Below are positions 10,955 to 44,605 of a stretch of DNA of 64,000 bases, piece after piece (position 1 is the stretch's first letter; every line of letters starts with the position of its first letter). The DNA comes from a virus (lineage: Duplodnaviria > Caudoviricetes). The notes beneath the pieces were generated by a model, which had not been told where the DNA came from, made no database searches, and was given only the letters and a program-made list of their open reading frames with translations. Made by a program: the position numbers and the translations under genes. The DNA is taken from the IMG/VR virus record IMGVR_UViG_3300014205_000180, positions 1 through 64,000 of that record, one strand, 5' to 3'.

Positions 10955-11875
10955 ATGAAGTTGAATAGTTTAAATAAGGATAAATTAAGAATTGGGGTGA
11001 TAGGGTATTGTTCTCAATATTTTGATAAAAAAGATGCTAAAAATAAATTAGAAAAAACAGTCAAGAATATAGTAAAAAACAACAAACTTCCAGTACATAT
11101 AGTGTCGGGCCTTACAAATATTGGAATGATGGCGATAGCATATAAAGTGGCAAGCGAAAATGGCTACAAAACAGTTGGCTATGCATGTAAAAAAGCTTTA
11201 GATATGGAATTATTTGATGTTGATAAGAAACATATTATTGGAGATAAGTGGGGAGATGAAAGCGAAGAATTTATTAATAATATAGACGTATTAATAAAAG
11301 TTGGAGGTGGTGAACAATCTAAGAAAGAATTAAAAATGGCTAAAGAATTAGGTATTGAAACTCATGAGTGCGATGTAAAAGAGAAAATATCATATTGTTT
11401 AATGGGATATCTTAATAAAGATTCAGCAAAAGAAATTCATGAACAAGCCAAGAATTTAAAAGCCAGAGAAGTTAAAAAACCAGATTACCACATAACTATA
11501 AGATACTGGTTAGCTGATCCTAAAGAAAGTATCTCAAAAGTAACCAAATATTTAGATGATAGATTTAAGCATCCAGTGCTTATTGAAGCAGATTATGAAG
11601 GCGAAACTGAAACTTTTGGTAATGAAAAATCACATGTACTTCTTGTTAATAGCAAATCTTTAAACGAATTCCAAAAGGACATTGATAATAAATTGCAAAG
11701 CTTTGGCGCTCCACCATCAGATTTTCCTGATTATAGGGCGCACATAACTGTCGCAGAAGGCGTAACAAAGAATGTTAAAATTAAGAATTGTAAAGTGCTG
11801 ATAAACAAATGGATTCTTACTACTAACAATGATTCAAACGAAAAACCTAAAGTTATTTGGGAAAAGGAATTCTAG
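10955..11875 (+). CDS. SLOG domain fused to 2H phosphodiesterase (Acb1/gp57B-like)
   Basis: N-terminal IGVIG, IVSGLTNIG, TVG and VGGGEQSKKE SLOG-type motifs; C-terminal HxT pair YHITIRY and GAPPSDFPDYRAHITVA. Confidence 0.75.
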   Translation: MKLNSLNKDKLRIGVIGYCSQYFDKKDAKNKLEKTVKNIVKNNKLPVHIVSGLTNIGMMAIAYKVASENGYKTVGYACKKALDMELFDVDKKHIIGDKWGDESEEFINNIDVLIKVGGGEQSKKELKMAKELGIETHECDVKEKISYCLMGYLNKDSAKEIHEQAKNLKAREVKKPDYHITIRYWLADPKESISKVTKYLDDRFKHPVLIEADYEGETETFGNEKSHVLLVNSKSLNEFQKDIDNKLQSFGAPPSDFPDYRAHITVAEGVTKNVKIKNCKVLINKWILTTNNDSNEKPKVIWEKEF

Positions 11876-33600: not shown

Positions 33601-33918
33601 TCAAAGCTTTTTAACTAAATTATCATAATAATACTTGCATGACCAATCATTCATCTTCTGAGATGGCTTTTTACCACGAATTTCAGAATAGAGAACAAGA
33701 GCAGAAGTGATTTCATTTTTGTTTCCTTGTCTGGTTGACATTAATGAACTGAGAGTGTCAATCTTTCTGGCTCTTGCAGCCTCTTTGATAGACTGACGAA
33801 GCAGGATTTGATCCCTGGACTTCAGTCTGATCAAATCACGAAGTTCTTTAATGATGCCTTTCCTGAGTTTTCGCAACTCAATCTCGGCATCAGTTAAAGT
33901 GGTAGTTGTGGTATTCAT
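33601..33918 (-). CDS. basic helical protein coupled to the Pth2 gene (start probably MNTTTT at 33918)
   Basis: ATGA overlap with the Pth2 stop and AGGAG SD upstream; ORF track gives 33601-33975. Confidence 0.65.
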   Translation of the reverse strand: MNTTTTTLTDAEIELRKLRKGIIKELRDLIRLKSRDQILLRQSIKEAARARKIDTLSSLMSTRQGNKNEITSALVLYSEIRGKKPSQKMNDWSCKYYYDNLVKKL

Positions 33919-34268
33919 CTTACTACTCCTGGGATACGATGATCCCATAATTTCCATTTCTTGAAGAGCCGACACGGCTCACCAATCAATGGAATGGTGC
34001 AAAGTGAGGTTGCTTGGTTCCCAATATCCGGTTCTCTGAACAGGACACTAGGAATATTGAACAGTTCTAAACGTTGAAATTCTCGTAATAAAGACGATTC
34101 ATCAGCAACTTGGCATAAAACCAAGTTGCTGACACTAGACGGAGCAGCACCAAGTTTTTGCGTTAATAAACCAGATTCTTGCGCGGCATGTGCCGCTTGA
34201 ACCATCTGCTGCGCTAACGGCAGATCGGTTCTAACCAGAAGATAGGTATAAAATTCGTGCTAAAGCAT
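33915..34268 (-). CDS. Pth2-type peptidyl-tRNA hydrolase with in-frame amber (TAG) at codon 3
   Basis: ATG CTT TAG CAC GAA TTT TAT ACC TAT CTT CTG GTT AGA ACC GAT CTG is in frame with ORF 33915-34205, giving YLLVRTDLPLAQQMVQAAHA...FREPDIGNQATSLC...LW, a complete PTH2 pattern. Confidence 0.8.
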
Positions 34269-34303
34269 GGTATTATTTTATAAAGTCGGGGCGGCTTTGT
34301 AAA

Positions 34304-34441
34304 TTATAGGATTTTGGCGAGGAAAATCCCGCCAATTACCCCAACAACAAGACCGCCACCAAAGCCAATATAGGTATTTGCATTGGTAATCAGTTTAACA
34401 AAAAATCCTTGAACCTGTTCAGTATTCTTGCCATCTGACAT
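34304..34441 (-). CDS. 45-aa single-pass membrane microprotein (not in ORF track)
   Basis: AGGAGATATACC-ATG start; MSDGKNTEQVQGFFVKLITNANTYIGFGGGLVVGVIGGIFLAKIL with GxxxG motifs; TAA at 34304. Confidence 0.7.
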   Translation of the reverse strand: MSDGKNTEQVQGFFVKLITNANTYIGFGGGLVVGVIGGIFLAKIL

Positions 34442-34477
34442 GGTATATCTCCTGACCCTATATTTTCTTAGCAATAG

Positions 34478-34550
34478 CGCCTCTATGGTGAATCGAACAC
34501 CAATTGACGAGATTTTAGAAATCTCCGCATTACCATTATGCTATAGAGGC
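34478..34550 (-). tRNA. amber suppressor tRNA (anticodon CTA)
   Basis: GCCTCTA/TAGAGGC acceptor, GCAT-AATGGTA-ATGC D arm, GAGAT-TTCTAAA-ATCTC anticodon arm (CTA at 34518-34516), TGGTG-TTCGATT-CACCA T arm, G73. Confidence 0.88.
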
Positions 34551-34570
34551 ATGTTGTTTTATAACAAACT
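34551..34570 (-). promoter_or_regulatory. TTGTTATAAA extended -10-like promoter of the suppressor tRNA
   Basis: Same motif recurs 5-10 nt upstream of many starts (2632, 7706, 16613, 21103, 26311, 30368, 35877, 47749). Confidence 0.55.
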
Positions 34571-43306: not shown

Positions 43307-44605
43307 TTAGTTTCCGAACTCAACTAATCTGGTGACACGGCACTGACTTGCACGATATACGATCATTTCATTATTATGAACAACCTCGCCAGCCCTTGCA
43401 AAGGTCGAGTCACAGCCATCCGGCGCTTTTTTCCAAGATCCGGAACTCTTAGGAATATATGGCTTACCCATCGCAACATCGTTAAGGAGCATATAGCACG
43501 TATTATCTTTTCTACCACCGCCCCAATATCCATAAGCGTAGTTTAAGCTCTTTGTCGATTGGTCTGAGAAGTATATTCCGTCACCGAACATGCGCCCAGC
43601 ATCGGCCCATGGCGGAATGATCAGACCACGTGACAGAATAGAAAGCAAATTACCAACACGGGTACCATGCCATAATTCTTTAACATTTCCAACCTTGGCC
43701 CCATCTTTATCAAAATTCTCATTCATATGAGATATTGTTAAAGTCCAGGCACGTTTTGGCTTTAATCCAGCCTGAGCCGCAGCGTGCATACTCTGGAAAG
43801 TAGAACGGAAATACTTATCAATACGCTTTAATTCATCACTATCAGTCGGCTTTAAACTAACATTCCAGGTGCGCTTCACTTCAACTTTAGGTTCATCCTT
43901 AGCTTGTGGCTGCGGCTTAGACAGCATATCAAGCGAACCAAGTAGAGCATCAAGAATCTGTTCCTGTTTATCAACTGAAGGTTTATCTGGAAAGACATTT
44001 TCAAAAGTTGGGCGATTACGACCAATATTGGTAGGAATTCTCATTAAATATTCACAAGCTAACTGATCTGCAGCATTTTCGGCTGATTTACTTCTTATAG
44101 TCGGGCCATTAAGAGTTACTTTAATCTTGCCCAATAAATCACGAGCATCATCAACTACCTGACGAGTAACAATGACTCCGCCATCAGTTTGGAACAAACC
44201 AGTAGAAGTGTTAACCTTGAGAGTAGTAGTGCTGGTAATGTCGCGTGTGTTACGATCAACAAGCATCGCAACTAAATCCTTTAATCCATTATCACCACCA
44301 GCAATTTCATCAATCGCCTTCTGTCGCACATCCTGTTTAGTAATAGCTGGTCCGTTTACTGTTCCGCTACCAGCATCGGCTGCTACTTCAATTTGTTTAT
44401 ATCCCTTACGCAACGATTCCTTTAATTTCTTCTGCATCTTGGCTTCTGGGTCAAGCTGGGAACTTCCAGCATCACCAACACGCCCCCATGAGTGAAGCCA
44501 CTGTCCGTCAGATTGTTTAATCCACTTATGAAATTTATTGCTATTACTTTCAGAAGTGGTGGTTGGGCCAGTCGACGAACATACGATATAAATGACGTCA
44601 CTCAT
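43307..44605 (-). CDS. WGR-domain PARP-like ADP-ribosyltransferase
   Basis: SNKF...WGRVG WGR domain; catalytic LWHGT, GRMFGDGIYFS, KSLNY and NEMIVY (H-Y-E triad). Confidence 0.88.
   Translation of the reverse strand: MSDVIYIVCSSTGPTTTSESNSNKFHKWIKQSDGQWLHSWGRVGDAGSSQLDPEAKMQKKLKESLRKGYKQIEVAADAGSGTVNGPAITKQDVRQKAIDEIAGGDNGLKDLVAMLVDRNTRDITSTTTLKVNTSTGLFQTDGGVIVTRQVVDDARDLLGKIKVTLNGPTIRSKSAENAADQLACEYLMRIPTNIGRNRPTFENVFPDKPSVDKQEQILDALLGSLDMLSKPQPQAKDEPKVEVKRTWNVSLKPTDSDELKRIDKYFRSTFQSMHAAAQAGLKPKRAWTLTISHMNENFDKDGAKVGNVKELWHGTRVGNLLSILSRGLIIPPWADAGRMFGDGIYFSDQSTKSLNYAYGYWGGGRKDNTCYMLLNDVAMGKPYIPKSSGSWKKAPDGCDSTFARAGEVVHNNEMIVYRASQCRVTRLVEFGN

What the first reader, a model, noticed from the sequence alone, without database searches (positions are those of the whole stretch)
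33915..34550. Amber-suppressor tRNA next to a peptidyl-tRNA hydrolase gene with an in-frame TAG at codon 3
Seen: a clean cloverleaf with anticodon CTA (34478-34550). About 210 nt downstream on the same strand is ATG-CTT-TAG-CAC..., in frame with a Pth2-type ORF. The first conserved beta-strand (YTYLLVRTDL) follows the TAG, and no ATG, GTG or TTG lies between the TAG and that strand. The ATG at 34268 follows a TTTATAAA variant of the window's start-proximal motif, as other gene starts do. TAG is a genuine stop elsewhere (thyA ends MAI-TAG; ligA ends after BRCT with TAG), so this is not genome-wide recoding. Known: Pth2 recycles peptidyl-tRNA after drop-off or stalling, and RF1 competes with suppressors at UAG. 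Inference: full-length Pth2 is made only when UAG is read through, via the phage's own suppressor or when RF1 or termination fails. This would be a stop-codon-gated translation-rescue switch, possibly countering translation-arrest defences or cleaning up side effects of the suppressor.
Basis: partly seen in the sequence, partly recalled or inferred. Interest (0 to 1): 0.93.

Follow-up and report, generated by a model that had tools for sequence, protein, structure and literature searches.

The report
Amber-gated phage Pth2 gene with suppressor tRNA
A large phage that otherwise uses the normal genetic code puts the stop codon UAG at codon 3 of a small tRNA-hydrolase-like gene and carries its own UAG-reading tRNA 209 bases upstream; dozens of distant phages, some lab-grown, keep this pairing, so the enzyme is probably made only when that tRNA overrides the stop.

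Summary
Confirmed. A canonical tRNA with anticodon CUA lies at 34477-34550 (-). 209 nt downstream on the same strand is ATG-CTT-TAG followed by 114 in-frame codons of a PTH2-family protein (33915-34268).

The TAG is not an error or a pseudogene mark. 41 of 56 non-identical related phage loci have M-x(1-9)-TAG just before the same conserved first strand. 32 of these 41 have a co-oriented tRNA-CUA within 3 kb, and 4 of 5 others tested carry one elsewhere on the same strand. Cultured phages GAP32, RsoM2USA, XacN1 and RAS14 share the layout, and their annotations truncate the gene, start it after the TAG or omit it.

This genome uses the standard code: 40 genes, including thyA and ligA, end in TAG.

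So suppressor-dependent ("amber-gated") expression is well supported by comparison, but not by experiment. The "translation-rescue" role is inference. The family has the Pth2 fold and keeps the Asp/His/Thr positions, but a Gln stands where Pth2 enzymes have Lys. Relatives without the TAG still sit next to a suppressor tRNA.

Earlier notes of this scan report the same module on other DNA (at least 199 genomes). I found no published description: a 2018 XacN1 paper could not find its suppressors' targets, and a 2021 jumbo-phage survey lists PTH2 without mentioning suppressors.

The parts
34477..34550 (-). tRNA with anticodon CUA (amber suppressor type). Canonical cloverleaf, 7-nt anticodon loop UU-CUA-AA, discriminator G73, no encoded CCA.
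   Evidence: ARAGORN. Rfam RF00005, 57.1 bits, E=3e-11. The 32 aligned CUA tRNAs (31 from related loci plus the window's own) keep the cloverleaf: 97% of cells paired and 19 of 21 pairs with compensatory changes.
34557..34563 (-). TATAAAA box whose TATAAA hexamer ends 7 nt before tRNA position 1. Possible promoter -10 element. Inference only.
   Evidence: Read from the sequence. The same hexamer is enriched before gene starts in this genome.
34304..34441 (-). Small ORF of 45 aa with a hydrophobic C-terminal half, between the tRNA and the gated gene. It is preceded by AGGAG and has no in-frame TAG. It is absent from the closest relatives L002 and L003, where the tRNA abuts the gene.
   Evidence: Only a weak PHROG hit.
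34275..34303 (-). Promoter-like TTTACA-N17-TAAAAT ending 6 nt before ATG 34268, so the mRNA may be leaderless. There is no Shine-Dalgarno sequence.
   Evidence: Consensus scan, 10 of 12 matches. Such matches are not more frequent in this region than in shuffles, so this is a lead only.
34260..34268 (-). ATG-CTT-TAG: start codon, Leu codon and the gating amber codon at codon 3. The next base is C.
   Evidence: The same ATG-CTY-TAG occurs in L002 and L003-L005, with a synonymous CTT>CTC change.
33915..34268 (-). Amber-interrupted PTH2-family gene: 117 codons including the TAG, stop TGA at 33915-33917. Strand beta1 (residues 6-13) and the conserved R13 and D15 lie before the first internal Met (M22, 34205).
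33601..33918 (-). Downstream 105-aa gene of unknown function. Its ATG overlaps the Pth2-like stop (ATGA), and it has its own GGAG 7 nt upstream. Probably the same operon.
   Evidence: No family found.

Best explanation
This is a two-part phage module: an amber-suppressor tRNA (anticodon CUA) and, on the same strand, a PTH2-family tRNA-ester hydrolase gene whose third codon is UAG.

If RF1 terminates at that UAG, only fMet-Leu is made. The next possible start (M22) would give a protein without the central first strand and without the conserved Arg13 and Asp15. Full-length enzyme is therefore made only when the UAG is decoded, most simply by the phage's own tRNA-CUA, so the amount of enzyme follows the suppressor's activity in the infected cell. 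The UAG sits in the unconserved N-terminal tail, so the residue inserted does not matter.

Shown here: the anatomy, the conservation of the early UAG, the linkage to tRNA-CUA, the standard code in the rest of the genome, and the Pth2 fold.

Inferred: the tRNA is expressed and charged, read-through happens, and the enzyme cleaves an acyl or peptidyl ester on a tRNA 3' end.

My best guess for purpose is that the enzyme is a companion of the suppressor. It either recycles peptidyl-tRNAs produced as a by-product of suppression and early drop-off (about 35%), or acts on the suppressor's own acyl or peptidyl ester, closing a feedback loop on read-through (about 25-30%).
For: 1) Conservation of the gate. 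41 of 56 non-identical relatives have ATG, 1-9 codons, then TAG immediately upstream of the conserved strand Y.Y..VR.DL. TAG is the first upstream in-frame stop for only 26% of ordinary ORFs in the same loci (p about 1e-13, not corrected for phylogeny). The proteins are only 23-50% identical to the window's.

2) The frame is under coding selection across the TAG. Between the window and L003, codon 2 (CTT>CTC) is synonymous, and codons 4-21 show 6 synonymous changes, 1 conservative change and 1 other.

3) Linkage to the tRNA. 32 of the 41 have a tRNA-CUA within 3 kb, and all 47 CUA tRNAs found within 3 kb of the related loci are on the gene's strand. Of five gated genes without a nearby one, four carry it elsewhere on the same strand (GAP32, RsoM2USA and two IMG/VR records); the fifth is an 8%-complete fragment. 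One complete genome has a tRNA-UUA instead. A complete genome whose gene has no TAG (L063) has no CUA tRNA.

4) The CUA tRNAs are functional-looking. There are 40 different sequences among them; in the 32 I aligned, 97% of cells are paired, 19 of 21 pairs show compensatory changes, and the UCUAAA segment of the anticodon loop (U33, the CUA anticodon, A37-A38) is invariant.

5) The context fits read-through. The base after the gating TAG is A in 31 of 41 and never T. After terminal TAGs in the same loci it is A in 27 of 65 and T in 13 of 65 (p=7e-4 and 1.5e-3).

6) L061/L062 have a second in-frame TAG at codon 33, inside the conserved core, where homologues have E or Q. Neighbouring ORFs there are the same under both codes. 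Re-initiation cannot explain that.

7) This genome uses the standard code. Code 11 gives the best coverage (96%). Stops are TAA 106, TGA 64 and TAG 41, and thyA and ligA end in TAG.

8) Pth2 homology. The family profile against solved Pth2 structures gives E=1.6e-10 over the full length. PF01981 is hit by 31 of 35 members. The AlphaFold model has pLDDT 90.8, and its top 11 Foldseek hits are all Pth2 proteins or archaeal homologues.

9) The TAG is not an assembly error. Independent assemblies from other samples (L002-L005, L123) carry it.
Against: Nothing here is experimental. Expression, charging and identity of the tRNA are unknown; nearest-isotype and discriminator-base analysis was inconclusive.

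40 ordinary genes of this phage end in TAG and show no enrichment of back-up stops, so a strong suppressor should be costly. That argues for weak, brief or regulated suppression.

The window's own post-TAG base is C, not the favoured A.

The window protein alone does not reach Pfam's PTH2 threshold. The position aligned to the GK lysine of Pth2 enzymes is a conserved Gln, so peptidyl-tRNA hydrolase activity is not assured.

TAG-less relatives with an adjacent suppressor tRNA (L022, L028, L032, L126, L128, L124) show the gate is dispensable.

Only about 60% of the genome is held, so other UAG-containing targets may exist.

Phylogenetic non-independence inflates the p-values.
Confidence: 0.7

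Rival explanations
1. Start-stop minigene with re-initiation. ATG-X-TAG is a 2- to 10-codon upstream ORF. Ribosomes terminate or drop off at the UAG and some re-initiate at a near-cognate codon just downstream, without any suppressor. The tRNA-CUA linkage would then serve another purpose.
For: Many relatives have an Ile codon (AUH, near-cognate) or GUG/AUG directly after the TAG. The form resembles lambda bar minigenes (my knowledge). The mRNA may be leaderless.
Against: In the window no ATG, GTG, TTG or ATH lies between the TAG and the first strand, and the only CTG lies inside that strand. The stop is TAG in 41 of 56 loci although TAA is commoner in these AT-rich genomes. The co-oriented tRNA-CUA linkage is unexplained. 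L061's second TAG, in the core of the protein, cannot be bypassed by re-initiation.
Confidence: 0.07
2. Partial or block-wise stop-codon reassignment (TAG read as an amino acid, 'code 15'). The Pth2-like gene would be just one of many late genes with in-frame TAG, the rest lying in the missing roughly 40% of the genome.
For: Only about 60% of the genome is held. TAG stops are rarer in the 60-151 kb part, with its large, probably structural genes (10 of 87), than in the first 60 kb (30 of 115; p=0.012). Phage recoding with suppressor tRNAs is known (bioRxiv 10.1101/2021.08.26.457843).
Against: No convincing split gene was found in 151 kb. The 12 same-frame neighbour pairs joined by TAG each have their own start. 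Code 11 gives the best coverage. In complete cultured genomes the XacN1 authors found nothing beyond amber stops (PMC5852040). The early-TAG Pth2-like gene recurs as the specific target in otherwise standard-code loci.
Confidence: 0.12
3. The gene is dead or truncated. The TAG is a nonsense mutation or sequencing error, and only the 96-aa M22 product, or nothing, is made.
For: Gene callers report the 96-aa form. GAP32_397 is annotated as truncated, and the RsoM2USA gene is not annotated.
Against: The TAG is kept in 41 diverged lineages and in independent assemblies. The region between the TAG and M22 is conserved at the protein level, mostly through synonymous changes, and holds the conserved R13 and D15 and the first strand of the sheet.
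Confidence: 0.03

Closest known systems
Stop-codon-recoded phages with phage-encoded suppressor tRNAs (TAG read as Gln, 'code 15': crAss-like, Lak and others; Borges et al., bioRxiv 10.1101/2021.08.26.457843; Peters et al., PMC9523058)
   Same: A phage tRNA-CUA is proposed to make in-frame UAG readable in a host that uses the standard code. The in-frame stop is proposed to act as a post-transcriptional gate.
   Different: Here the genome is standard-coded, with 40 genes ending in TAG. A single small gene carries the UAG, always within the first codons. That gene is the same family in distant phages and is physically linked to the tRNA. Those papers describe many late and lysis genes with TAG, and the preprint does not mention a hydrolase.
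prfB (RF2) autoregulation through an in-frame UGA early in its own gene (my knowledge)
   Same: An early in-frame stop codon in the mRNA of a translation factor reports the cell's current capacity to decode that very stop.
   Different: prfB needs a +1 frameshift, and its product is the factor that reads the stop. Here the passage is in-frame read-through by a tRNA. Whether the product acts back on UAG decoding is unknown.
[quoted passage not shown] 2021, PMC7824862)
   Same: Same fold and overall motifs (VRxDL...Q..HA; D.G...T; P). Presence in jumbo phages is already recorded.
   Different: The phage family has EPD.G in place of DAG and a conserved Gln where Pth2 enzymes have the GK lysine. 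That survey does not mention suppressors or the in-frame TAG: 'suppressor' occurs 0 times in it.
Orphan suppressor tRNAs of standard-code jumbo phages, such as XacN1 (Yoshikawa et al. 2018, PMC5852040)
   Same: Same kind of tRNA-CUA in a standard-code jumbo phage. XacN1 itself carries a member of this protein family (ORF364).
   Different: The authors read through terminal amber stops and found no target. Here the candidate target is an amber codon at the 5' end of the gene: XacN1 reads MK-TAG-TIKAMKL..., and ORF364 is annotated from the Met after the TAG.
Synthetic amber-suppressor AND gates (supD tRNA plus a T7 RNA polymerase gene with amber codons; Anderson, Voigt and Arkin 2007; my knowledge)
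   Same: The output protein is made only if both the mRNA and the suppressor tRNA are present.
   Different: That circuit is engineered. This would be a natural and widespread counterpart with a fixed output gene.
Lambda bar-type minigenes (AUG-AUA-stop) that cause peptidyl-tRNA drop-off (my knowledge)
   Same: ATG-CTT-TAG is formally a two-codon ORF. If it is not read through, it would yield a dipeptidyl-tRNA or a dipeptide.
   Different: Here a conserved protein continues in frame behind the stop, and the stop is specifically UAG with a cognate tRNA nearby.

Membership tests
PTH2 peptidyl-tRNA hydrolase family (PF01981) | Significant sequence-profile match over the whole domain | tested here: met
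   The family profile A2 matches solved Pth2 chains (24bt, 2zv3, 1rzw, 1wn2, 1q7s, 1xty) at E=1.6e-10 to 2e-3 over the full length. 31 of 35 members hit PF01981, best 2.2e-11. The window protein alone reaches only E=0.14, 12.8 bits against a cut-off of 23.
PTH2 peptidyl-tRNA hydrolase family (PF01981) | Pth2 alpha/beta fold (four-stranded sheet with flanking helices) | tested here: met
   AlphaFold2 model with pLDDT 90.8 and pTM 0.83. The top 11 Foldseek PDB hits are all Pth2 proteins or archaeal homologues (1wn2, 2zv3, 1q7s, 3erj, 1xty, 1rlk), probability 1.0, TM 0.62-0.73.
PTH2 peptidyl-tRNA hydrolase family (PF01981) | Active-site residues (Asp of the DAG motif, Lys of the GK motif, conserved His/Thr). 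The residue roles are recalled from the literature and were not re-read here. | tested here: inconclusive
   In the HMM alignment, D81 aligns with the DAG Asp, T87 with the Thr, and H27 and Q24 with the Q..HA motif. These are invariant or nearly so. The GK Lys position carries a conserved Gln (Q21), and E79-P80 are an invariant insertion.
PTH2 peptidyl-tRNA hydrolase family (PF01981) | Hydrolysis of N-blocked aminoacyl-tRNA | not testable with these tools
   Needs an enzyme assay.
Amber suppressor tRNA | Canonical cloverleaf tRNA with anticodon CUA in a 7-nt loop (U33, purine 37) | tested here: met
   ARAGORN. Rfam tRNA 57.1 bits against a gathering score of 29. Loop UU-CUA-AA. It does not look like tRNA-Pyl: ARAGORN's 'Pyl' label only reflects the anticodon.
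Amber suppressor tRNA | Expressed, aminoacylated and able to compete with RF1 at UAG | not testable with these tools
   The only hint is weak: a metatranscriptome-library contig of a relative (about 95% identical) spans 34241-34522. DNA carry-over cannot be excluded.
Stop-codon-reassigned (code 15) phage | TAG frequent inside genes and not used as a terminator | tested here: not met
   Code 11 gives the highest coverage (0.962 against 0.932 with TAG as sense). 40-41 genes end in TAG, including thyA, whose Pfam model ends at the last residue. No convincing TAG-split gene was found.
prfB-like autoregulatory in-frame stop | The gene product itself changes decoding of the stop codon in its own mRNA | not testable with these tools
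   There is no evidence either way on whether the Pth2-like enzyme acts on tRNA-CUA.

The most novel reading that the evidence does not exclude
The module is a self-referential homeostat for stop-codon read-through. The Pth2-like enzyme would act on the suppressor tRNA's own aminoacyl or peptidyl ester, or on its 3' end together with the partner domain related to tRNA nucleotidyltransferases. The UAG at the start of its own mRNA would then close a feedback loop that sets how strongly UAG is read through in the infected cell. This would be a tRNA-based counterpart of prfB autoregulation, and it would explain how a standard-code phage tolerates its own suppressor.
Probability: 0.2. Interest if true: 0.9.

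Novelty: new variant of a known kind. Interest (0 to 1): 0.8.

Why it matters
Suppressor tRNAs in standard-code phages have had no known target. The XacN1 authors looked and found none (PMC5852040). This module offers a specific, conserved and testable target: one small enzyme gene with a UAG in its first codons.

If it holds, it is a natural single-gene genetic-code switch, the wild counterpart of synthetic amber AND gates. It could also be an early step on the path to full stop-codon reassignment in phages.

It has a practical side as well. In the annotated records I examined the gene is truncated (GAP32), started after the TAG (XacN1) or missing (RsoM2USA), and metagenome gene callers mostly report it from M22. 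The family (about 2,650 cluster representatives at E<=1e-10) is therefore probably under-counted.

Cultured carriers exist on tractable hosts (Cronobacter, Serratia, Pectobacterium, Erwinia, Yersinia, Ralstonia, Xanthomonas), so the idea can be tested directly.

Tried and rejected
- Near-identical DNA search in the phage collection: no match.
- Amino-acid identity of the suppressor. Nearest-neighbour comparison of 40 CUA tRNAs with 178 other tRNAs from the same loci gave no consistent isotype, and discriminator bases are mixed. The 'Q' at position 3 of P0009 turned out to be a TAG translated with code 15. The Q in L049 is CAA. So there is no evidence for Gln.
- Other gated genes in this genome. 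ATG-x(1-6)-TAG lies upstream of ORFs somewhat more often than the same pattern with TAA or TGA (12 of 69 against 15 of 272). The cases I looked at are chance: the PARP-like gene has its own Shine-Dalgarno and start, and one is a shadow ORF.
- Back-up stops after TAG-terminated genes: not enriched (median 10 codons against 7 for TAA and 3 for TGA).
- Release factor (PF00472) and CCA-adding enzyme (PF01743) in the held 151 kb: none found. The record is only about 60% complete, so this says little.
- The partner domain of fused relatives is not encoded in the held 151 kb.
- Pfam found nothing for that partner domain.
- Read laying. Contigs of two DNA runs from an independent landfill study cover the stretch at about 96% identity. 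The table of differences was cut before position 34260, so it does not itself show the TAG. Depth and RNA-library contigs are not evidence of expression.
- No other Rfam family, and so no ribozyme, lies next to the tRNA.
- Complex prediction was not used: there is no protein partner to test.
Full report
**What is there.** The window is the first 64 kb of a 151-kb IMG/VR virus record, about 60% complete and about 33% G+C. On the minus strand lies a tRNA with anticodon CUA at 34477-34550 (ARAGORN; Rfam tRNA, 57.1 bits, E=3e-11). It is one of only three tRNAs in the whole record; the others are Leu-CAA and Arg-UCU.

Downstream on the same strand come four elements:
- A 45-codon ORF with a hydrophobic tail (34304-34441).
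- A promoter-like TTTACA-N17-TAAAAT that ends 6 nt before an ATG.
- ATG(34268)-CTT-TAG(34262-34260), followed by 114 in-frame codons up to TGA at 33917-33915.
- A 105-codon gene whose ATG overlaps that stop (ATGA).

An in-frame TAA lies four codons before the ATG. No ATG, GTG or TTG lies between the TAG and Met22.

**The protein is a Pth2 homologue, but a divergent one.** On its own it misses Pfam's PTH2 threshold (E=0.14). A profile of 35 relatives matches solved Pth2 structures over the full length (E=1.6e-10 and weaker). 31 of the 35 hit PF01981. The AlphaFold model (pLDDT 90.8) finds Pth2 proteins or archaeal homologues as all of its top 11 Foldseek hits.

The first strand (residues 6-13) and the conserved Arg13 and Asp15 lie before Met22, so the 96-aa product that gene callers report would lack part of the core. 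In the HMM alignment the DAG aspartate (D81), the threonine (T87) and the Q..HA motif are kept. The lysine of the Pth2 GK motif, however, is a conserved glutamine, and an invariant Glu-Pro precedes the aspartate. I recall, but did not re-read, that this lysine is catalytically important in archaeal Pth2. So "peptidyl-tRNA hydrolase" is a reasonable but unproven activity.

**The early TAG is conserved.** The closest relatives from other samples read ATG-CTT-TAG-CAC (L002, 94% protein identity to the read-through ORF) and ATG-CTC-TAG-CAA (L003-L005, 79%). Each has a tRNA-CUA 47-57 nt upstream. The changes around the TAG are mostly synonymous.

A scan of IMG/VR gave 63 loci. Together with the window and those close relatives, 56 are non-identical. 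In 41 of the 56, the first in-frame stop upstream of the conserved strand is TAG, with an ATG 1-9 codons before it. For ordinary ORFs in the same loci the first upstream stop is TAG in only 26% of cases (p about 1e-13, uncorrected for shared ancestry). The TAG falls most often at codon 3 (19 of 41), 5 (9) or 4 (7).

The base after the gating TAG is A in 31 of 41 and never T. After terminal TAGs of the same loci it is A in 27 of 65 and T in 13 of 65. From my knowledge of E. coli, A after UAG favours suppression and U favours termination.

In L061/L062 a second TAG sits at codon 33, inside the conserved core, where homologues have Glu or Gln. The neighbouring genes there read the same under both codes.

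**The tRNA travels with the gene.** 32 of the 41 gated genes have a tRNA-CUA within 3 kb. All 47 such tRNAs found within 3 kb of the related loci lie on the gene's strand, either 26-730 nt upstream or 350-2200 nt downstream.

I built a covariance model of these tRNAs and searched whole records:
- GAP32, RsoM2USA and two IMG/VR records carry the tRNA 3-13 kb away on the same strand.
- Three records with no tRNA-CUA are fragments (8-39% complete).
- One complete genome carries a tRNA-UUA instead, which by wobble should also read UAG.
- A complete genome whose gene lacks the TAG has no CUA tRNA.

There are 40 different CUA tRNA sequences. In the 32 I aligned, 97% of stem positions stay paired, 19 of 21 pairs show compensatory changes, and the UCUAAA segment of the anticodon loop (U33, CUA, A37-A38) is invariant. 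Their discriminator bases and nearest isotypes differ. The inserted amino acid is therefore probably not the same everywhere, which fits a TAG placed in the unconserved N-terminal tail.

**The genome uses the standard code.** Greedy ORF coverage is best under code 11 (96.2%, against 93.2% with TAG as sense). The stops are TAA 106, TGA 64 and TAG 41. thyA matches its Pfam model to the last position at its last residue and ends in TAG, and ligA also ends in TAG. I found no convincing second TAG-interrupted gene in the 151 kb.

TAG-terminated genes have no excess of nearby back-up stops. A strong, constitutive suppressor would therefore be costly. This is the main argument that suppression is weak, brief or controlled.

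**Variants that inform function.**
1. In XacN1, RAS14 and IMG/VR relatives, the Pth2-like domain is fused behind a ~180-aa helical domain. These long genes also begin M-x(1-3)-TAG: XacN1 MK-TAG-TIKAMKL, RAS14 MK-TAG-TLNKL.
   - That domain has 361 homologues, fused or free. The free form lies next to the Pth2-like gene in L019, L040, L053 and L067.
   - Its profile matches a class II tRNA nucleotidyltransferase-family "tRNA processing enzyme" (3wfo-3wfs, E=1.5e-5). Its model (pLDDT 96.9) finds the same chains first, then HD phosphohydrolases.
   - This links the enzyme to tRNA 3'-end chemistry.
   - The window's record does not encode it.
2. Several relatives have no TAG yet sit directly beside a suppressor tRNA: L022, L028, L032, L126 and L128 with CUA, and L124 with UUA. 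The enzyme-suppressor partnership is therefore more basic than the gate.

**Mechanism.** The best-supported reading is that full-length enzyme is made only when the phage tRNA-CUA decodes the UAG at codon 3, so enzyme level follows suppressor activity (confidence 0.7). What the enzyme then does is inference. It may recycle peptidyl-tRNAs produced by suppression or early drop-off, or it may act on the suppressor's own ester and so feed back on read-through.

The rivals fit the data much less well: re-initiation after a minigene, block-wise recoding with further targets in the missing 40% of the genome, and a dead gene. Reasons are given in the Rival explanations section.

**What is known.**
- Iyer et al. 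(PMC7824862) list PTH2 in jumbo phages and do not mention suppressors.
- The XacN1 paper (PMC5852040) reports two CUA tRNAs and states that no target could be found.
- The recoding preprint of Borges et al. does not mention a hydrolase.
- Three full-text searches found no paper linking the two.
- Earlier notes of this scan describe the same module in many other genomes, including a cassette in Acidobacteria. Those are unchecked AI notes, and I re-derived the core claims here.

**Other evidence.** Contigs of two DNA runs from a second landfill study cover the whole stretch at about 96% identity. A metatranscriptome-library contig of a relative spans 34241-34522, from inside the tRNA across the small ORF to beyond the TAG. 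This is only a weak hint of co-transcription.

The family is large: 2,652 cluster representatives at E<=1e-10.

**Verdict.** The gate by a suppressor tRNA is well supported by comparison but untested at the bench. The rescue function is open.

Noticed in passing
L069 (XacN1 AP018399.1, ORF364), L070 (GAP32 JN882285.1, GAP32_397), L071 (RsoM2USA MG752970.1, 68874-69194), L072 (RAS14 OP752703.1): Cultured jumbo phages carry the same early-TAG gene, but it is mis-annotated. XacN1 ORF364 starts at the Met after MK-TAG. GAP32_397 is truncated to 77 aa (the true start is probably MAQ-TAG-NEKT). The RsoM2USA gene (ML-TAG-ISDKT) is not annotated at all. This may be the target that the XacN1 paper could not find.
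   Followed up: partly
L015:2452-3000, L020, L069, L072; free-standing in L019:1585-2067, L040:2420-2953, L053:2420-2968, L067:3370-3867: A ~180-aa helical domain (motifs QHGLSV, HD.GKP, HFP.HA, D.M.H, AELHSNA) is fused or adjacent to the Pth2-like gene. Its profile and predicted fold are nearest to a class II tRNA nucleotidyltransferase-family enzyme (3wfo-3wfs), then to HD phosphohydrolases. Pfam does not recognise it.
   Followed up: partly
L061/L062:2971-3312: A Pth2-like gene with two in-frame TAGs (codons 3 and 33), next to an unusual 91-nt tRNA-CUA with a long variable arm. The neighbouring genes are not recoded.
   Followed up: partly
L064:4710-4804 and L124:3320-3392: tRNAs with anticodon UUA (ochre type) stand in place of the CUA tRNA. 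One is beside an early-TAG gene in a complete 169-kb genome (L064). The other is beside a TAG-less gene (L124).
   Followed up: no
L028:2700-3350: The upstream ORF ends in a TAG that is in frame with the Pth2-like gene (...AATTAA-TAG-GAS-MLDKL...), and a tRNA-CUA lies right downstream. Read-through would fuse the two proteins. This may be coincidence.
   Followed up: no
window 43307-44605 (-): A 432-aa phage protein with a PARP catalytic domain (PF00644, E=9.5e-26) and a weak WGR domain match.
   Followed up: no
whole record G000; e.g. window 34277-34282 and 34558-34563: The TATAAA hexamer occurs upstream of 34 gene starts against 4.7 expected, peaking at -11 from the ATG (TATAAA-N5-ATG). This suggests leaderless or nearly leaderless mRNAs. 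The same box ends 7 nt before position 1 of the tRNA-CUA. A minority of genes have AGGAG at -11 instead.
   Followed up: partly
whole record G000: TAG stops are more than twice as frequent among the small genes of the first 60 kb (30 of 115) as among the large genes beyond (10 of 87; p=0.012). This could mean late or structural genes avoid TAG, or it could reflect noise from small ORF calls.
   Followed up: partly
L002:4711-5517, L003:4881-5684: The closest relatives carry a GmrSD_N (PF03235) domain gene about 1.5 kb downstream of the module.
   Followed up: no
window 10955-11875 (+): A 306-aa protein with a LigT-like 2H phosphoesterase match (PF02834, E=4e-6) ends in TAG. Another first-reader note calls it Acb1-like.
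   Followed up: no
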